Below the pieces are notes generated by a model, which did no database searches, was not told the origin of the DNA, and worked only from the letters and a program-made list of their open reading frames with translations. A stretch of 64,000 nucleotides of DNA from Octopus vulgaris (Eukaryota): NCBI GenBank assembly GCA_951406725.2, contig OX597817.1, forward strand, positions 68,758,001 to 68,822,000. Direction: 5' to 3'. Positions 317-50,488 of this stretch are shown here, piece by piece; the first letter of the stretch is position 1; every line of letters begins with the position of its first letter. The translations under genes were made by a program, and so were the position numbers.

Positions 317-1806
317 TTGAAGAAAGATTTTCTTAAAAAATTATTAAATGTTTAAAAGAAAATTTTAAAAAACAGAACAGAATGATGCTAACAGTTTGAA
401 AATTGTATATACATTTATATGTGTGCATACATATACTTATAAACACACAAACACAAGCTTAACACATATTGGGTGTATTAGTGCATATGCATATATATAT
501 ATGATATTGTTGCACTTTCATACGTGCACCACTTGCCTGCTCTTGTAACCTAAATACCTATTCTAGTGTATAGTTATTGCTATTCCATTAGGTAACTCAA
601 TATAAACAGATCTATCTATGTACTGAAGCATATTATTTGAGTATTGTTATGGTTGGATGCTTCCTATGCTACTTATCTACTTCTCCATATATTCTTTATG
701 ATGAGGTATGGTAAGAGCTAAATAACTAACGTTTGTTTTAGCTTCTGATTACTTTGCAGTCAAAAGACAGCGATATGTCTTCAGTCTTTCTTGGAGGTAA
801 TAATGAGTTGAAGTATTCACAGAAGGTGATAACTGGTATTAGAATTTTTGTTTGGGTTATTTGTTGGTTGTTGGCAGTTTACTTCTCTAGTATCAGGCCG
901 GTACTTATTTTCTAGATCACCAGACATCATGATCATGATCATCATCATTTTAATGTCTTCTTTTCCATGTTTGCATGGGTTAGACATAATTCTGTGAAGC
1001 AGATATGCTACAGATGGATGCCCTCCCTGTCACCAACCTTCATTTGTATCTGAAGCAGGCAACATTTCCGCATGAGTGGACATAATTGGTGATGAATAAC
1101 TCCACTTGTATGCTTGCGGTACTCATTAGCAACTATCACATGATACTTCTTTCAGTGTCGGTCTGCCAAACCCACTCACAAGGCTTTGGCTGGCCAGTGG
1201 CCTAGGTAGAAGACACCTGGCCAATATGTCATGCAGTAGTATGAACCCAAAACCACATGGTTGAGAAGCAAACTTCTTAACAACTAACCTCTATCTGCAC
1301 CTATGTAAAGTATATCATAATGGTAACAATAACTTCTAGCATAGGTACAAAAACCACAAATATGTGGTTGATGGCTTAATCCAGTATATCCATCCCAATT
1401 CTTGACTGGTACTTCATTTGATGACACCTCCACCCACCCAAGGGATAAAAAGCAAAGCTGATTCCAATGGGTTTTAATCTCAGAATGTAAAGAGTCAGAA
1501 CAAATCCTGCAAGGCATTTTTTCTGAGGCTCTAATGATTTTGCTAATTCACTGATCTCAATGATAATGATAGTAATTCTTTCTGCTGTAGACACAAAGCC
1601 TGAAATCTTTTAGGGGAGGGGGCTGGTCGACTATAATGACCCCAGTACTCAACTGGTACTTATTTGATCAACCTCGAAAGGATGAAAGGCAAAGCTGACC
1701 TCAGTGGAAATCAAACTCTGAAGACAAATGGATAAAACACCCTTAAGCATATTGTTCAATGCACTAATGATTCTGCCAGCATACCACCTTCATGATAATA
1801 ATAATA

Positions 1807-2150
1807 GGAAGAGCATCATAGCCATGTGTTGAGAGGGATTCTTTGGGGTTTGAATAATTCACCTCTGGAAACATGCGTGTTTCATTCAACACCCTTAAAC
1901 AACCCTTATTCAGGGACCTTTTGAGTGGGATGGGTTACTCGACCAGAAGAAAATTCTAACTGGGCCCCACCTGCAAGGTCATGTGCTGTTTATCTTGATA
2001 TGAGATCACCATGTTGCACACACATGGTTGTGATGCATGTGCCTAGCGTACCCTTATCAGACAGGTAGTCATGATGGGTATACTGGGCTCCATATATTTT
2101 ATCCCAGTGTCACTTTGATGGCATGCACTGCTCTCTCACTCAATAATAAT
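1807..2150 (+). mobile_element. Family D: non-coding TAA-flanked retroelement, 5'-truncated copy
   Basis: Colinear with 49232-49570 and 36025-36360. Preceded by (TAA)n and ends CTCTCTCACTC(AAT)n. Confidence 0.8.
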
Positions 2151-3539
2151 ATTAAAAAAATTTAAATAATAATAATAATGGTTTCAAACTTTGGCATGAG
2201 GGCAGCAATTTTGGGGAGGTGGTAAGTTGATTATATTGATCCCAGTGCTCAACTGGTACCTATTTTATTGACCTCAAAAGGACAAAAGGCAAAACTGACC
2301 TCAGTAGAAATTGAACTCAGAACATTTAGATGGATGAAATGTTGTTAAGCATTTTGTTTGACATGCTAATGTTTCTGCCAGTTCCCTACCTCCATGATAA
2401 TGATAATGATTTTAAGAATAATGGTCTCTAATATGTTCACAAGGCCATGAAATTTATGGAAGGTTGTGGTCAATATGATCTTTCCCAGTATATGATTGGT
2501 ATTTGCTTTTATGATGATGGTTCTTCCAGTCTCAGCAATGCATATTCAGCTAGTTGTTTGGTTAAATGGATTTCTTCATGTGAAATTAATGGGAAACCAA
2601 GGCAGAGTATTCTTCTAACAGGTGAACTCTTAAAGCAATTATCAGAGTGATACAATGGAACAGCATTGGGTCTTTGAATTATAGATACAATTGAAAAAGA
2701 GAGAGAGAGAGAGGTGGGGAATTGGATCTAATAAATAGCTGTAGAGACTCCAATGCATTGTTTTGTCCAAAGAGGGGTGGAATCTATGATATTGCTAAAA
2801 CAGTCCTAAACTGACTCTATAAAACTCATGGGAAACACGCAAGGGAGTATTTTTCTCATCTCTGAGATGATATGGCTGTTGTAACAAACACACAAACAAA
2901 CCCTAGGTTACAGTTTAACCTTTTGGAGATGAAGCCTCATTTGGATTTTCTGTGCCAAGATGGAGCCCTTTTCACAAGCCCTATAGAAGGCATGCACTTA
3001 TTTTTCAAAAAAAAAATTAAAAAATAAAGGAATTACTTTACATATATAAAACTATATATATATACTTGTAGGAAACTGAATTAACTAATACAATATTCTT
3101 TGTCATTTGACTTTTCGGCCAATAGATCAGTGCTGTCATCTCCTAAGGATTAAAGGAAAGTTAACTATTACTCACTGACCAACAAACTTCAGCCTTTGGC
3201 CTACAGTTGTAGTTTCCTGTATTTTTGCTCTTCTCAACTGTTATTACAGTAGTTTCCAATTCCTTGAGGATGGTTGGTCTCCTGCCACCACTAATCAAAT
3301 ATTCTTGACTCTTCTTGTCATTATGTTGCATCCACCCACCACCAACTACATAACAGACCGTTATGCTTAATCCTTACTTCCTAGAATATTAGTACTCAAT
3401 CCTTTCTCCCTAAAATTTTGGTATTCTGAAGTTACCCCCTGCAGATATTTTGTGACAGCTGTTGATTTGTAACTGTTTAAAAGGGTTTCATCAGCTCCTT
3501 AGAAGCTGCAAAGGATAATGTCGCAGCTAATCCAATAAA

Positions 3540-38246: not shown

Positions 38247-39469
38247 TGTGTGTGTGAACTTAATCCTCTGGCTACATTTCATAACTGAACAAAACATTGT
38301 TAAATGGTGCAAGATGTCCTGATTTGACAGGCAAGGGTGGCATTGAGGTAAGTCTCAGTAAAGAAGAAAAATATTTTGTATCATAATGATTATGTTAGTA
38401 TAGACATATTTAACACAGGGTGCATTAAAAAGCCAATGAGGCTTTTGTTACCTGTTTCAGTCATTAGACTCCAGCTATAAGGAGAAGGGAAGAAAAAAAC
38501 AATTAACTCAAAATTATTGACTGATATTATTGTTAATTATATTATGTTCTGATTTGCCAGACCTCAGTCAAATCGTCCAACCCATGCTAGCATGGAAAGC
38601 GGACGTTAAATGATGATGATGATGATGATGATGATGTTCAGGAGAATAATTCTGGACATGTTTTGGTATCATTTAGCCTCCTCAACAAAATGAATACCTT
38701 ACCATATTTACTAGAGTAAAGTAGAAATATTCAGTGAATAAATTACATTGTATAACAAAATTTTAATATTTTTTTTTTGTCTTTGATCAGTAAGTGGTAT
38801 TTCCTATTTGCTTCTCTAGAAATCAAAGGACATGATTACTATTCCCTTCAAACTTTTCTTTTGTGATTTGGACATTAATGCTTTGAAACTGACCAATTTT
38901 CCATTACATTTCAGTCAGATTCAGCATTGAGTTGCTGAAGCAGAAATATCATTACAACAAATCTTCTGCTCAATACTACAAATATGCTTGTCAGTTGCTT
39001 GACCATAACCAATAGAGCATGTCCCTTAGTAGCTGGCAATATATGTATCTCTAATCATGAGCAGGGGTAGTGGTGGAGCATCATAGCCTTGTGTTGAGAG
39101 AGATTCTTTGGGGTTTGAATAAATGTGACAAAAGCAAAGTTTGAAGGAAATATTAGCTATTTTTCATACTTTCAAGAGGTAAGCAAATAAGAAATAACAG
39201 TTGTTACCAAAGGACACAAATCGTATTTCACAGTGTTAGTCTTAGATGCCAATTATGGTAAAAGCTTCATATTTTATCTCTTTATTTCTAGAGGAAAGAC
39301 ATAATTTCATTGTGGAGCAAAACAGTGACTTGTATACCTGAAAAGCCAGAGGTGCTCGTTTTCACACCTTAAATTGTTGCTTACAAATATGTAGGTTAAG
39401 CTTGATGATAAAATATTAGCTATTATCAGTGACAGAAGCAGTATTAATACCATAAGACAATTTAATCTT

Positions 39470-43251: not shown

Positions 43252-43854
43252 CTGCCTCACAAAATCTAAGAATTTGACCCCAAGAACAATTTGAACATGA
43301 AACCATCAATACGGAAATCAATCCCAGTTTAGTGTTAAACATGTCTGAAGCAATTTCCTCCTTGTCTTTTGCAGAAGTGCTTCATTTGTTGAGTGTTGCT
43401 GTATTGATTGCTTTGACTAACTAATTCCTTTGCATACTCGAGCAAGATTTTTAAATATGTATGTATTTTCAGAGACAGTTATCATCTCTAACAGCTCACT
43501 GTCCAATCTCTGTTGTGCTGAGACTACAAATTCTCTCCTCGCTATTAATCTTTGTGGAGGAAGAGTTAAGAGAAGACTCAACATAAGCAATCAATAAAAT
43601 AATGATAAAAAAAAAAAAGAAAATCTGCAAGATGAGAGAGCATAGAAATAAATATGTATAAAACATCTCAGAAGCTGCAGTGTTCATTGACAGCTTATGT
43701 AGCAGACAAGCTTATAATGTCTAAAACTTTGTGGCCTGCTTAGAATAGCACTTATTCTTCAATGATGATGATGATGATGATAATGATGATAATAACAGCA
43801 TAGAAACTAATTTTGTACATGTGTGCTTGTGTTGATCATGGACTTCATGCAAAG

Positions 43855-44224
43855 TGACCAGATATTATTGTTCTAGACAAGAGGGAATAAGAGAGTGCAA
43901 CGTCATAGATGTGGGTATGCATATAGGGGTCAAAGAACAAGAGAAAACAGCAAAATACCAGGATTTGGTTAGGGAAATACAAAGACTATGGAGGGTTTCT
44001 ACAAAAGTTCTCTCAGTTGTCTTAGGTACCTGAGGCACCATCACCAACAGACTTCACAGTTTCATTATTGAAATTGATGTAACTATGATAGTTGTATTAT
44101 TTCAGAAATCTGTTCAACTTGGAACAGCAAGGATCGTGAGAAAGGTCCTCAGTATCTAAGGAAACTGGTTGCGACTCAGTATCAAGGAGATTGATTCTGA
44201 ATGCAGACCATTCATGCACACCAT
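43855..44224 (+). mobile_element. 3' fragment (RLE domain + 3' UTR) of an older, divergent R4/Dong-like element
   Basis: Disrupted translation PDIIVLDK...VIDVG...KEQEKTAKYQDLVREIQRLWRVSTKVLSVVLGT*GTI...FQKSVQLGTARIVRKVLSI* parallels the C-terminus of the intact ORF. Ends in (AAT)n. Confidence 0.85.
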
Positions 44225-44252
44225 TAATAATAATGATAATAATAATAATAAC

Positions 44253-44305
<53 letters not shown>

Positions 44306-44307
44306 TG

Positions 44308-44338
<31 letters not shown>

Positions 44339-44340
44339 TG

Positions 44341-44372
<32 letters not shown>
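44224..44372 (+). repeat. (AAT)n microsatellite, ~50 units with GAT/AAC variants
   Basis: Seen directly. Target and tail of the R4/Dong elements. Confidence 0.98.
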
Positions 44373-44375
<3 letters not shown>

Positions 44376-47300
44376 CGTGATACACTTCCTAAAATGGATG
44401 AGCGTGATACACTTCCTAAAATCCGCAACTCTAACCAAAACATGAAAATAATTGGTAAAATCCGGCTTGCACTTAAGGATATAATTTCAGTTAATGATGT
44501 TGATATCACAAACCTCAACCACCTATACTATGCATCCGCGAAAATCTCAACGATCCTATGTGGTGTAAAGATTAGAAAACGGCAACAGTCCCACAAAAAG
44601 CCTTCTTGGCAAGAGCGTCTGCAACAACAAATTAAAATATTTAGATCTGACATTGAATATTTGAAAAACCTTAAGGCTCACAAGATTACCAAACCTACAA
44701 AAACCCCAAAATTACTGAAAAAATACAATATGAAAACTATACTTGATATTGATGCCACCATAGAAACCATCAAACAAAAGGTATCTGCCAAAGCTGCCCG
44801 CATAGCGAGGTATGAAAAGCGTGTTAGATTTTTCAAGGACAACAACATGTTCAAAAATAACACCAAGAATTTTTACAGGAAGATAGGAAAAACAGCGTTT
44901 ACTGCAGGGTCTGTACCATCAAAAGAAGAAGTGCAGAGATTTTGGAATAAAATCTGGGCAGAAGAAAAAACACACAACGAAAAGGCCCCCTGGATTGACA
45001 GAATATCTACAGAACTGGACCCCTTAGAAGAGCAAAAGTGGGAGGGTGTCAAGGTAGAAGATATAAGATCTGCTCTCAGGAGGTCAAGCAAATGGAAGTC
45101 TCCAGGAAAGGATAAAATTCCTAACTTCTGGCTGAATGCCTTCCCAGAGAGCCATGAACTGCTAACAGAACTGTACAATGATGTTTTGCAACACTCTAGT
45201 AGGATGCCTCCTTGGCTAGTTAATGGGTTAACATTCCTGCTTCCAAAAAGTGAAGAAACAAATGAACCAAAAAACTATAGACCCATAACCTGCTTAACAA
45301 CTATGTACAAAACACTAACATCTGTCCTGACGGAATATACCTATAGTTTTTTAACAGACAGCAGCATATTCCCTAATGAACAGAAAGGATGTAAACGTGG
45401 ATCCTACGGCTGTAAAGACCAACTACTCATCAATAAGATGATCTTAGAAGATTGTCACAAACGACACAAAAACTTATCAATAGCCTGGATAGACTATAAA
45501 AAGGCTTTTGATAGCCTACCACATAGCTGGATTAGGAAATGCCTTGAAATGTATAAGATAGCACCAACTCTGCGAAACTTCTTGACTGTAAGTATGAGAT
45601 CATGGAGAACCACACTAACTCTGAACAGTGACAGTGAATCCCTAAATGCTGGTGATGTAAAAATTTCGTGTGGCATTTTCCAGGGTGACTCACTGTCACC
45701 ACTCCTCTTTTGTTTATCCTTAATACCTCTCTCAAAGCTGCTCAATGATGCGCAGTACGGGTATAAAATGTTTGATAAAAATATAAATCATCTCGTTTAC
45801 ATGGATGATTTAAAGCTTTTTGCAAAAAATGATCAACAACTCAAGGGCTTACTAGCGATAGTCAAACAATTCAGTGATGACATCAGAATGCAATTCGGCC
45901 TCGATAAATGTGCAAAGGCTACCTTTATCAAAGGAAAAATGACAGAAACATCTAACGTTAACCTTGACCAACAGAATGTCATAAAAGAACTAGACCCAGC
46001 GGAGAGCTACAAGTACCTAGGGATAATTGAAGGGAACGGAATAAGGCATTCAGAGATGAAGGAAAGGATCAGGAGAGAATGCTATCGAAGAGTGAGAGCA
46101 ATACTCAAGACAGAGCTGAATGCAAGAAACAGGATCGAAGCAATCAATGCATTAGCTATACCAGTCGTGACTTACAGTTTCAATATTGTTAACTGGTCAA
46201 TTACTGAAATATGTCAGCTCGACAGAAAAATAAGGAAACTGTTGACAATGCATAGAATGCACCACCCTAAGGCAGATACAGAACGACTCTATCTGCCAAG
46301 AAAAGAGGGAGGCCGTGGTCTTTTGCAACTGGCAATAACAATGAAGATTGCTACAATTGGCCTAGACACCTACCTGAAAAACTCTGAGGACTGGATGCTA
46401 AAACTTGTCTCAAAACATGAAAACAAGAAAGCATCATACTCAGTCACAAAACAGGCAAAGGAATATCTAAGTGAATTCCGAATACAACCAATTTCGAAAT
46501 TAGAGATAGATATACAAGAAACAAGCACAGAAAAAGCTAGGCGCATGAAAACCCGTGCCAAAACTGCGGCCTTAGATATTCTGAATAATAAATGGCAAGA
46601 AAAACCTCTCTATGGCAAATACCCAAAGAGAGCGAATAATGCAGATATCGACAAAGCCCTGACCCATCAATGGCTAATGGCCTCTGGCTTAAAATCTGAA
46701 ACAGAGGGGTTTATCATAGCAGCTCAAGATCAATGCCTACCAACAAGAAACTACCAGGCCAACATATTAAAGATCAGAAGCAGTCCAACGTGTCGTGTAT
46801 GCAAGCAACAAAATGAAACCACTGACCATGTGGTCTCCAAGTGCAGTCTTCTAGCGCCTACAGAGTATCTCAACAGGCACGATAGAGCTGCACAATATAT
46901 TCACTGGGTAATCTGTAAAAACCTGGATTTGCCCCATGAAAAAAACTGGTGGGAACACAAACCACCCCCAGTGCTTGAAAATGACCACATCTCACTCCTC
47001 TGGAACTTCACCATTCAAACTGACAGGAAGATAGATGCAAATAGGCCAGACATCATATTGAAAAACTTCACACAAAGAACATGCCTCCTCATTGATATGA
47101 CTGTCCCAATCAATATAAACGTATCTGTCAAGACCTACCAAAAACTGAGCAAATATAAAGATCTTGAAATAGAAATCAGCAAAATGTGGAAGCTGAAGAC
47201 TAAAACAATACCTGTTGTCATAGGTGCCCTGGGAATGATAGCAAAAGGGGCTGATAGCTACCTAACTCAGATACCAGGAAACCCAAAAATGGCAGAAGTT

Positions 47301-47571
47301 CAAAAGATAGTGCTCATGGGAACTGCTCATATCCTACGCAAAATACTCTCTATGTAATCTCAAGGTTTAAAACAAACATAATTTTCGGTTTAAAAAAAAA
47401 AAAAAAAAATTTTTTTTTTTTTAGACATTCATTAGTACAACATCCCCACCCCCCAAATATATGGCACACTAGGCATAACAACAACATGAACTTCCAACCC
47501 TGTTGTCTCTTGAGGTCTCTGGGTGAGACTTGGAGCCAACTTGTACAAATATAAAGCAAAAGTCAAACATA

Positions 47572-47572
<1 letters not shown>
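44371..47572 (+). mobile_element. Young R4/Dong-type LINE copy inserted in (TAA)n
   Basis: Intact ORF, ~215 bp 3' UTR (47358-47572), (AAT)n on both sides (44224-44372 and 47573-47613). TAA-repeat targeting is the known behaviour of Dong. Confidence 0.9.
44394..47357 (+). CDS. Non-LTR retrotransposon protein, R4/Dong clade (reverse transcriptase + CCHC zinc knuckle + restriction-like endonuclease), 987 aa from ATG 44394, probably 5'-truncated
   Basis: Stop-free frame with RT motifs KWKSPGKDKI, NYRPITCLTTMYK, EQKGCKRG, IAWIDYKKAFDSLPHSW, GIFQGDSLSPLLF, HLVYMDDLKL (YMDD 45798-45809) and YKYLG. These are followed by RLYLPRKEGGRGL, CRVC-x8-H-x4-C, RHD and the RLE motif NRPDII...IDMTVP...KLSKYKDL. 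No APE domain. Confidence 0.95.
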   Translation: MDERDTLPKIRNSNQNMKIIGKIRLALKDIISVNDVDITNLNHLYYASAKISTILCGVKIRKRQQSHKKPSWQERLQQQIKIFRSDIEYLKNLKAHKITKPTKTPKLLKKYNMKTILDIDATIETIKQKVSAKAARIARYEKRVRFFKDNNMFKNNTKNFYRKIGKTAFTAGSVPSKEEVQRFWNKIWAEEKTHNEKAPWIDRISTELDPLEEQKWEGVKVEDIRSALRRSSKWKSPGKDKIPNFWLNAFPESHELLTELYNDVLQHSSRMPPWLVNGLTFLLPKSEETNEPKNYRPITCLTTMYKTLTSVLTEYTYSFLTDSSIFPNEQKGCKRGSYGCKDQLLINKMILEDCHKRHKNLSIAWIDYKKAFDSLPHSWIRKCLEMYKIAPTLRNFLTVSMRSWRTTLTLNSDSESLNAGDVKISCGIFQGDSLSPLLFCLSLIPLSKLLNDAQYGYKMFDKNINHLVYMDDLKLFAKNDQQLKGLLAIVKQFSDDIRMQFGLDKCAKATFIKGKMTETSNVNLDQQNVIKELDPAESYKYLGIIEGNGIRHSEMKERIRRECYRRVRAILKTELNARNRIEAINALAIPVVTYSFNIVNWSITEICQLDRKIRKLLTMHRMHHPKADTERLYLPRKEGGRGLLQLAITMKIATIGLDTYLKNSEDWMLKLVSKHENKKASYSVTKQAKEYLSEFRIQPISKLEIDIQETSTEKARRMKTRAKTAALDILNNKWQEKPLYGKYPKRANNADIDKALTHQWLMASGLKSETEGFIIAAQDQCLPTRNYQANILKIRSSPTCRVCKQQNETTDHVVSKCSLLAPTEYLNRHDRAAQYIHWVICKNLDLPHEKNWWEHKPPPVLENDHISLLWNFTIQTDRKIDANRPDIILKNFTQRTCLLIDMTVPININVSVKTYQKLSKYKDLEIEISKMWKLKTKTIPVVIGALGMIAKGADSYLTQIPGNPKMAEVQKIVLMGTAHILRKILSM

Positions 47573-47613
<41 letters not shown>

Positions 47614-47614
<1 letters not shown>

Positions 47615-49020
47615 CCATTCTATGAATAAATGGTAGACAGTGCTACAGCTCCAAACAAAAGAGGAACTTGTAAAAAAACAAAGCCATCCCCATTAGAAGA
47701 GGAATATTCCAAGGAGACACACTCTCTCCACTCCTTTTCTGCTTGGCACTGATACCTTTATCTAACATGCTAAACAGAACTGGAAGCAGATACAACTGTT
47801 ATGGCAAAACAATCAGCCACCTCTTATATATGGATGACCTAAAACTGTGTGCTACAAATGATAAACAGCTGGAAACATTATTATGGAGATTACATGGATT
47901 TACCAAAGACATATGAAATTTGGCTTAAAAAAAATGTACCAAAGCAACCTTGAAAAGAGGAAAACTAGTTAAGAGTAGCAACATCACACTAGATAAAGCA
48001 AATGAAATAAGAGAATTAGACCAAAACTAGACATATAAATATTTAGTAATCAATGAACTAGATATGATACAACATACAAATGAAAGAGAAGATAAAAAAA
48101 GAGTACTATAGATGAGTTAGATTAATACTGAAAACAGAGCTCAATGTGAAAAACAAGATAATAGGTATCAACACTTTAGCCATCTCAGTTATAAGTTACA
48201 GCTACAATATCCTTAGCTGGACATTAAATGAACTAATCAAAATAGACAGGAGAACAAGAAAAATAATGATAGGATTCAGGATTCAACACCCAAAATCTGA
48301 CATAGAAAGGTTATATATACAATGTATAGAAGGTGGTAGAGGCCTTATACAGCTAGAAAAATACTACAAAGTAACCATCATAGGACTACAGAAATACCTA
48401 CTTCAGAAGCAAGGAAAACTAATACAAATAGCCACAGAACACGAATAAAACAAAAAACTGTTTTCAGTATTTAAGGAAGCTGACAAATACAAACAAGAAA
48501 TCACACTATCTGACAACTATGAAGAAAAAGAAGAAACAACAAAAGCTGTAAAACGAATGAAATCCAAACTAATACTAGAACAGCAACAGATCATGATAAA
48601 ATGATGGCAAGAAAAGCCCCTTCATGGCAAATACTGGGTTAAACTAAATGTAAAAGAAATAAACAAGGCAAAATACCAACAATGGCTGAGAAGCCCAGGG
48701 CTTAAAGCAGAGACTGAAGGATTTTTAATTGCAGCACAAGACCAAAGCCTCCACACCAGAAATTACCAAAAACATATGATGAAATGACGCATAACAAGTA
48801 ACTGCAGAATATGTGGAGATGGACAAGGAATAACAAATCATATTGTCTCTGGTTGCTCAGTCCTGGCTAAGAAGGAATATATTCACAGACACAACAAAGT
48901 TGGGACCTACATACACTGTAAGCTATGCCAACACTATGGAATAACAATAGAAAAAGATGCTATAAGCAGATGCCAGAAAAGGTCACAGAAAATGAGAAAG
49001 CAACAATACTATGGGATAGA
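47614..49020 (+). pseudogene. Decayed, doubly truncated R4/Dong RT (different subfamily)
   Basis: RRGIFQGDTLSPLLFCLALIPL, HLLYMDDLKL, HPKSDIERLYIQCIEGGRGLIQL, LKAETEGFLIAAQDQSL, CRICGD...HIVSGC and ENEKATILWD, with stops and frameshifts. Starts right after the TAA run. Confidence 0.93.
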
Positions 49021-49027
49021 GAAATAT

Positions 49028-49572
49028 GAGTATATTGGGCTTCATATAATTGTACCCCAGTCTCACTGTGATGGCATGCACTACTCTCACTCAATAATAA
49101 CAATGGGCTACAGCAAATATTCTGCTTAATACAACAGATTTGGTTCTCAGTTATTTGACCATAACCAGTTGAACATGTCCCTTAGTGGCTGATGATATGT
49201 GTATCTCTGATCACGAGCAGAGGTAGTGGGGGAGCATCATAGCCATGTGTTGAGAGGAATTCTTTGGGGTTTGAATAACTCACCTTTGGAAATATGGGTG
49301 TTTCATTTAATATACTTACACAACCCTTATTCAGGGACCTTTTGTGTGGGATGGGATACTTGACCTGAAGAAAATTCGAACTGGGCTGCACCTGTAAGGT
49401 CATGTGCAGTTTATCTTGATATGAGATCACCATGTTGCGCACATGTGCTTGTGATGCATGTGTTTGGTGTACCCTTATCAGACGGGTAATCATGATAGGT
49501 ATACTGGACTTCATGTATTTTACCGCAGTGTCACTTTGATGGCATTTATTGCTCTCTCACTCAATAATAATA
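49028..49572 (+). mobile_element. Two tandem family D copies (short 3' end 49028-49092; longer copy 49103-49562)
   Basis: Both end CTCTCACTC-AATAATAA, immediately downstream of the decayed R4 RT. Confidence 0.8.
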
Positions 49573-49792
49573 ATTACAATTATTATTATTATTATTATCG
49601 TAATAGCTGGAGGTGTGTTTTTGGAGCACTGTAAGTTTATGATTAATTCACTTGTTTAAAAGGTTCTATACTGTATTTTGTTGTTTAAATCATTTTGTAA
49701 CCAGCTGTCCTTCCATGAGGCTGACATTTGTTAACCAAGAGTAATACAAACCCTTTTGTCTTCAAATTTCTTTGAAAATTTGCTTTGAAGAA

Positions 49793-49994
49793 GCTCCCCA
49801 ACTACTTCTGATCATATCATCAGCTACTAAAGGACATGCTCAACTGGTTAAGGTCAAGTAACTGACAAGCAAATCTGTGGTATGGAGCAGAATATTTGCT
49901 GTAGCCCATCTTTTACACCAAAACAAAACAATGTACATGATAACACTTCCAACCAGTTAAGATCAAAAGACATGGGAGCCACTGCATAAGGGCT
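49793..49994 (-). mobile_element. Family D 5' portion, inverted
   Basis: Reverse complement matches 35860-36030 and extends further 5'. Abuts (ATT)n at 49995-50062. Confidence 0.75.
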
Positions 49995-50016
49995 ATTATT
50001 ATCATCATCATCATCA

Positions 50017-50056
<40 letters not shown>

Positions 50057-50488
50057 CATTATCATGTTCTGTACCTGTATGAAATTTTTCCACTTTAAGC
50101 AATGTTGTGCATTACCAAATGTAATTCAATAATGGACGGGCTAACTGCTGAATCATGGTTTAGATAGTCCCCAAACCACTGTAAAAGGATTTCATATCAT
50201 GCTTCTAATCTAGATCCAATAAAGAGGAGGTTAAGATATTTCTTTTCACTCCATGAGGATTTTGTACCATTTGATAAATTTTCCTCAATAATCACAACTA
50301 ACCCAATTAATAGAAAAATGTGAAATAAATTATTTTAGCAATTAAAATGTTATAATGATGTAGTGATCACGCTTCCCCTCACTTCACACTGAAGGAAACT
50401 CCCTCCTATCCAGCACCACTGAATTTTCCGCATTTCTGATCATTATTTCTAGATTAATTTAGCACTTTACAAAACTCATTAAAACTCC

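What the first reader, a model, noticed from the sequence alone, without database searches (positions are those of the whole stretch)
43761..50062. A ~6 kb self-renewing TAA landing pad: six elements stacked in series
Seen order: (GAT/AAT)n, RLE relic 43855-44224, (AAT)50, intact element, (AAT)13, decayed RT of another subfamily 47614-49020, family D 3' end, AAT, family D, AAT, then an inverted family D next to (ATT)n. The first five are in the same orientation and differ greatly in decay. Inference: each insertion regenerates a TAA target, so different lineages reuse one site over long time spans, as R2/SART-type arrays do, but at a dispersed microsatellite.
Basis: partly seen in the sequence, partly recalled or inferred. 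Interest (0 to 1): 0.72.

Follow-up and report, generated by a model that had tools for sequence, protein, structure and literature searches.

The report
Dong retrotransposons stacked in AAT microsatellites
Several jumping genes of a known kind that aim at AAT repeats, with a short non-coding passenger that likely borrows their enzyme, have piled up head to tail at one repeat; such piles are common in this genome, and the one odd point is that new copies have a much longer pure repeat in front than behind.

Summary
The stack is real, but it is ordinary for this genome. Five co-oriented pieces lie in series: three R4/Dong-like RT+RLE retrotransposons of different families and ages, then two pieces of a 556-bp non-coding element (D). 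The 'intact' element is not intact: it is a young (99%) copy lacking its first 1.78 kb. In 100 evenly spaced 10-kb stretches, D/R4 neighbours across an AAT tract were co-oriented 11 to 0, and one stretch held a six-member stack. Dong elements are known to target (TAA)n, so splitting a tract and re-using its halves is expected. Renewal is not needed to supply targets: 24 of 28 lengthened tracts in a host repeat carry no element. Two points go beyond what I found in print: D behaves as a Dong passenger, and young copies have a longer pure AAT run 5' than 3' (30 of 38; 17.5 vs 7 units), which may mean the enzyme adds target repeats. The scan noted similar stacking at other targets in this genome before.

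The parts
43762..43796 (+). decayed (GAT/AAT)n tract, left edge of the stack
43810..44224 (+). R4c: oldest relic, RLE C-terminus plus 3' UTR; left end approximate
   Evidence: tblastn 37% to the main ORF over 43890-44156; nearest copies 73-80%; 10 of 14 relatives end at an AAT-type tract; present with its unique left flank in a second organism
44225..44372 (+). (TAA)49 tract, 5' flank of the young element
44371..44422 (+). 27-bp tandem duplication of the element's truncated 5' end
   Evidence: like duplications in other copies
44373..47572 (+). R4a: young Dong-like element, uninterrupted RT-CCHC-RLE frame, 5'-truncated by 1.78 kb
   Evidence: RVT_1 E 9e-28; best solved relatives are R2 proteins; 98.5-99.5% to copies in 20 loci
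47573..47613 (+). (AAT)13 tract
47614..49028 (+). R4b: decayed copy of a second family, cut at both ends
   Evidence: 44-50% aa to R4a with stops and frameshifts; nearest copies 88-91%
49029..49092 (+). D positions 489-556, fused to R4b without AAT (likely a later deletion)
49093..49104 (+). (AAT)4 tract
49103..49562 (+). D positions 97-556, 5'-truncated non-coding element
   Evidence: 90% to nearest copies
49563..49599 (.). (AAT)4 meeting (ATT)7 head to head
   Evidence: 39 other matches at 74-91%; 13 of 14 abut an AAT/AAC tract at this end; reading frames run away from the tract; no significant Pfam match
49790..49993 (-). inverted D, positions 3-232 only
   Evidence: a contig of another sample spans the X/D break without differences
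49994..50063 (-). (AAT)23 on the minus strand, 5' flank of the inverted D

Best explanation
This is a pile-up of (AAT)n-targeting R4/Dong-like retrotransposons of three families and ages, plus a non-coding element D that likely uses their enzyme, built by what are inferred to be separate insertions into one microsatellite and trimmed by likely later deletions. Shown: each young copy has AAT repeats on both sides, reads along the AAT strand and is cut to varying lengths at its 5' end. Inferred from R2/R4 biology: the endonuclease nicks the tract, reverse transcription is primed there, and the tract is split into two usable halves, so the next element lands beside the last in the same orientation. 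Targets come mainly from ordinary slippage growth of AAT runs; insertions keep and multiply them. Inferred, about even odds: the enzyme also adds AAT units at the 5' junction. R4c is oldest, R4b and D intermediate, R4a landed last between R4c and R4b. The inverted D and element X come from a neighbouring tract of opposite strand.
For: AAT follows 30 of 30 R4a 3' ends and 70 of 73 D 3' ends; 51 of 69 D copies also have a 5' tract, with a ladder of 5' truncations. At least seven R4-type 3' UTR families end in AAT. In 100 evenly spaced 10-kb stretches: 54 D/R4 pieces, neighbours across a tract co-oriented 11:0 (p 0.001), 25:0 with family E, five pairs and three triples by strict linking; locus L160 is a six-member stack on inspection. 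21 of 38 young R4a copies have a co-oriented neighbour across the tract (22 less one 5' duplication), 3 an opposed one. Tandem duplication of the 5' end occurs in R4a, R4b (ten copies in L160) and D, a shared junction signature. Age ladder 99 / 88-91 / 73-80%. Dong targets (TAA)n in insects, molluscs and cnidarians (PMC7998251, PMC3812793; passages).
Against: No named Dong or R4 sequence could be fetched, so clade membership rests on anatomy and target, not on a tree. D shares no sequence with R4a or the R4b 3' UTR, so its helper is not identified; Penelope-like and other elements also end in AAT here. No contig spans the long tracts. Occupancy of sites is more clumped than either a Poisson or a geometric model gives (three triples against 0.2-0.6 and 0.6-1.4), so regional preference or tract quality also matters.
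Confidence: 0.85

Rival explanations
1. Active target amplification: the enzyme adds AAT repeats by repeated copying at the 5' junction, so each insertion leaves a larger, purer target than it found and stacks feed themselves.
For: Pure AAT run longer 5' than 3' in 30 of 38 young copies (3 ties; medians 17.5 and 7 units; p 3e-5); random cuts in random runs gave at most 26 in 2000 trials; the two runs sum to 27 units against a length-weighted 14. Whole tracts: 26 of 33, 82 vs 30 bp. Repeated synthesis at 5' junctions is visible as (GAA)n additions and 5'-end duplications.
Against: Preference for long pure runs with a cut 5-9 units from their 3' end gives the same pattern. 24 of 28 lengthened tracts in a host repeat, up to 183 bp, hold no element. 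D shows no asymmetry (12 of 24). The window's own copy has pure runs of about 10 (5') and 13 (3') units.
Confidence: 0.35
2. Passive accumulation or local duplication: elements gather in a tolerant region, or the stack arose by tandem duplication or co-transcription, without repeated targeting.
For: D/R4 pieces are clumped (75 of 100 stretches have none); some D copies carry a partial D fused upstream without AAT.
Against: Members belong to families 37-50% alike in protein and of different ages; junctions fall at AAT tracts and neighbours are co-oriented 11:0; the same neighbour pairs do not recur with a given copy.
Confidence: 0.07
3. Assembly misjoin: unrelated repeat copies were joined through their AAT tracts.
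For: No contig of seven runs spans the long tracts; one other locus with tandem R4a copies holds an N gap.
Against: Junctions without long tracts are supported: R4c with its unique flank in two other samples, one a second organism, and the X/D break in another sample. The 27-bp duplication and the deletions are not misjoin products. Stacks recur at many loci.
Confidence: 0.05

Closest known systems
Dong (Bombyx mori), DongAG, DongBG and ostracod Dong1/2; R4/Dong clade (PMC7998251, PMC3812793, PMC3774820; passages seen)
   Same: Single ORF with RT and C-terminal restriction-like endonuclease, no N-terminal zinc fingers, N-terminal three-helix domain, (TAA)n on both sides; closest proteins come from corals, insects and shrimp.
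   Different: Here at least seven families coexist at high copy number and stack with each other and with non-coding elements; I found no paper describing this for Dong. An HDV-like 5' ribozyme, shown for Dong, was not found by my rough descriptor.
Dong-R4 of Octopus vulgaris (PMC13282606, PMC8967140; passages seen)
   Same: Five recently active Dong-R4 families with 1,129 insertions are reported; R4a is young and abundant in the same way.
   Different: The passages seen say nothing on target, stacking or passengers; their repeat library (supplement, not examined) may already hold R4a and D.
Tandem insertions of target-specific elements, e.g. Utopia in U2 genes (PMC4640811, passages seen); R2 and SART/TRAS arrays (recalled)
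   Same: Repeated insertion at a preserved target gives head-to-tail copies.
   Different: The target here is a dispersed, length-unstable microsatellite shared by several unrelated families.
Non-autonomous R2 derivatives (SIDEs) and SINEs (recalled)
   Same: D is short, non-coding, abundant, 5'-truncated in steps and shares the target of an autonomous family.
   Different: D shows no match to R4a or the R4b 3' UTR and no Rfam match for a tRNA, 5S or snRNA head.

Membership tests
R4/Dong clade | single ORF with RT, CCHC motif and C-terminal RLE | tested here: met
   1,272-aa ORF; RVT_1 and zf-RVT; alignment to R2 proteins runs through the C-terminus
R4/Dong clade | insertion in (TAA)n, one orientation | tested here: met
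   39 of 39 5' junctions and 38 of 38 3' junctions at AAT
R4/Dong clade | divergent N-terminal Myb/SANT domain without zinc fingers | tested here: inconclusive
   confident three-helix model; best rows include Sap1, Zeste, SANT, TRF and the R2 N-terminal domain but only at Z 4.5-6.8; Foldseek and Pfam gave nothing. This domain is absent from the window's truncated copy.
R4/Dong clade | RT phylogeny with named R4/Dong elements | not testable with these tools
   no named reference among the hits
R4/Dong clade | HDV-like ribozyme at the 5' end | tested here: inconclusive
   fixed 5' end at a G-rich start; rough descriptor found no fit; no Rfam match in two loci holding the 5' region
R4-mobilised non-autonomous element (D) | same target, orientation and 5' truncation pattern as the helper | tested here: met
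R4-mobilised non-autonomous element (D) | 3' end shared with an autonomous partner | tested here: inconclusive
   no match to R4a or R4b; no D-like 3' end joined to coding sequence in the loci held, other than by deletion; other R4 families were compared only by eye and by folding
tRNA/5S/7SL/snRNA-headed SINE (D) | structural-RNA-derived head | tested here: not met
   no Rfam match over D in five loci at E up to 5
Tx1/L1-type LINE (X) | ORF1 followed by APE-RT ORF2 | tested here: inconclusive
   frames and an APE-like start recognised from recall; Pfam not significant in 4 of 4 pieces

The most novel reading that the evidence does not exclude
Dong retrotransposons enlarge their own landing site: repeated copying at the 5' junction adds about ten pure AAT units per insertion, and these amplified tracts feed a shared niche used by at least seven Dong families, a head-less 556-bp passenger and unrelated LINEs, so that about half of the long AAT microsatellites in this genome are retrotransposon-kept.
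Probability: 0.3. Interest if true: 0.62.

Novelty: new member of a known kind. Interest (0 to 1): 0.3.

Why it matters
As it stands: a clear, countable case of many retrotransposon families sharing one microsatellite target, with a very young family of near-identical copies that makes Dong targeting testable, and a likely passenger element for a clade in which I found none described. If the 5' excess of pure AAT is made during insertion, it would tie microsatellite birth and growth directly to an RLE retrotransposon and explain why stacks are more clumped than simple models predict.

Tried and rejected
Empty-site search by matching left and right flanks of 29 D and 19-20 R4a copies to other loci gave only other stacks; the one true case (L236, 15-bp site to 94+24 bp) lost its force when 24 of 28 lengthened host sites proved element-free. 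D as an internal deletion of R4a/R4b: no similarity. D or R4a 5' HDV-like fold: descriptor negative, Rfam negative; weak tests. Folding of 3' ends showed stem-loops in R4 UTRs but no clear match in D. Contigs of public runs cannot bridge AAT tracts, so presence or absence of R4a in other samples could not be told; two short contigs over the D-(AAT)4-D joint are too short to count. Relatives in metagenome contigs: 0 of 44 candidates confirmed. Xiong and Eickbush 1993 and Burke 1995 are not held; Kojima and Fujiwara 2004 was seen only as a citation. PMC3124438 (passages) had nothing relevant. Family E was not counted as a core member because only 12 of 96 3' ends abut a same-strand tract. Full-length copies of family X were not examined.

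Full report
Setting. The window lies in a 2.8-Gb animal genome of 227 contigs. It is probably an octopus; this is my inference from recall of its repeats and from earlier notes of the scan, and I did not establish it.

Observation. The series is present as described. The main element has an unbroken 994-aa frame with RT (E 9e-28) whose best solved relatives are R2 proteins. It is not intact: 28 of 29 other copies continue upstream, the full element is 4,969 bp with a 1,272-aa ORF, and this copy begins at base 1783, losing about 285 residues that include a three-helix, possibly Myb-like domain. Its 5' end is duplicated over 27 bp. The second RT (R4b) is 44-50% alike in protein and the relic (R4c) 37%. 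Nearest relatives are 98.5-99.5%, 88-91% and 73-80% alike, so the three insertions are far apart in time and the youngest sits in the middle. R4b runs straight into the last 68 bp of D; about 430 bp of R4b, the tract and 488 bp of D are missing, most simply by a later deletion. The stretch 49600-49790 is a further repeat family X (39 other matches) that abuts AAT/AAC tracts in 13 of 14 copies and reads away from them; it is fused to an inverted D of positions 3-232.

Family D. It is 556 bp, has no long frame and no match to R4a or the R4b 3' UTR, and no Rfam match. Among copies held (29 top hits plus neighbours and random finds), 70 of 73 3' ends are followed by an AAT tract, 51 of 69 have a 5' tract, 31 of 73 start in the first 20 bases and the rest form a ladder of 5' truncations. 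Tandem repeats of the 5' end occur in D, R4a and R4b. This is the footprint of target-primed reverse transcription and points to an R4-type helper (inference, about 0.65). A part of D also lies inside a MITE-like repeat.

Genome-wide test. I took 100 evenly spaced 10-kb stretches from 12 contigs. They hold 54 D/R4 pieces; neighbours across a tract are co-oriented 11:0, or 25:0 with family E; 19 pairs lie within 400 bp against 1.1 expected, at most 6 in 5000 shuffles. Strict linking gives five pairs and three triples; L160 is a six-member stack on inspection. So stacks like the window's occur on the order of once per megabase (one case, wide error). At least seven R4-type 3' UTR families, D, part of E and a Penelope-like end finish in AAT. 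Of 38 young R4a copies scored (of 40 loci; one with a gap, one without the 3' motif), 21 have a co-oriented neighbour across the tract. The share of tracts that already abut such an element is 36% by bases (p 0.017 against 21 of 38), 46% of tracts of 30 bp or more and 53% of 60 bp or more: re-use is about what target supply predicts if long tracts are the targets.

Is the target regenerated? In the plain sense yes: all 39 young copies have AAT at the 5' junction and all 38 at the 3' end. But insertion is not the main source. A host repeat carries a 15-bp proto-site exactly in 338 places; 28 copies have six or more AAT units, and of these 24 have the host flank running up to the tract, which reaches 183 bp, 3 hold an insertion and 1 is unexplained. 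Tracts therefore grow by slippage (or remain after an element is lost between its flanking tracts), and elements follow.

The odd result. In young copies the pure run at the 5' junction is longer than at the 3' end in 30 of 38 (medians 17.5 and 7 units; random cuts gave at most 26 in 2000 trials); for whole tracts 26 of 33 (five copies left out: four scored with no 5' tract because of junction duplications or extra bases, one running off the locus). Older D copies show no such bias (12 of 24), and the window's own copy shows it for whole tracts (147 vs 39 bp) but not for pure runs. Either the enzyme cuts long pure runs near their 3' end or it adds units at the 5' junction; only empty alleles can tell.

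Assembly. Contigs of public runs support the R4c relic with its unique flank in another sample (no differences) and in a second organism (11 differences, one 12-base insertion), and the X/D break in another sample. None spans a long tract.

Known work. Dong elements carry RT and a restriction-like endonuclease and target (TAA)n in most insects, molluscs and cnidarians (PMC7998251, passages; PMC3812793, passages); Dong has a 5' self-cleaving ribozyme (PMC3774820, passages); five Dong-R4 families are recently active in Octopus vulgaris (PMC13282606, passages; PMC8967140, passages); tandem insertion of target-specific elements is known (PMC4640811, passages). Six searches found no account of multi-family Dong stacks, of a Dong passenger or of the 5' bias, but the founding papers and Repbase are outside the library and the supplement of PMC13282606 was not examined. 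Earlier notes of this scan describe Tx1-type stacks at a SINE, a Helitron and GATA repeats in this genome, none for this family.

Verdict. Real, correctly read in outline, but an ordinary example of a genome-wide pattern that follows from known targeting. New member of a known kind; interest 0.3.

Noticed in passing
window 1578-2391: A second small co-oriented stack: E, (AAT)4, truncated D, (AAT)12, E.
   Followed up: partly
window 38745-39236 and L203:1227-1716: A roughly 500-bp MITE-like repeat with terminal inverted repeats that carries D positions 103-272 inside it.
   Followed up: partly
L160:7300-7545 (minus strand): The 5' end of a full-length R4b copy is repeated ten times in 24-25-bp units behind the AAT tract; D in L072 shows about seven such repeats, most with AAT between them; R4a in L091 has about 17 added GAA units.
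   Followed up: partly
L092, L098, L105, L189 and others: A Penelope-like family with a tRNA-like end also abuts AAT tracts, sometimes as an inverted pair.
   Followed up: no
window 47390-47423: The R4a 3' UTR holds an A-run followed by a T-run that can fold back; its length varies among copies.
   Followed up: no
window 49563-49599; L014, L104, L106: Head-to-head (AAT)n(ATT)n joins are frequent (10 tracts in 7 loci clustered) and bring oppositely oriented stacks together; origin unknown.
   Followed up: no
L100 and L101 (G000:C2, about 210.36-210.37 Mb): Two identical-start R4a copies with the same left flank separated by an N gap; likely an assembly duplication.
   Followed up: no
L128: A tandem array of larger units, each with several short AAT tracts.
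   Followed up: no
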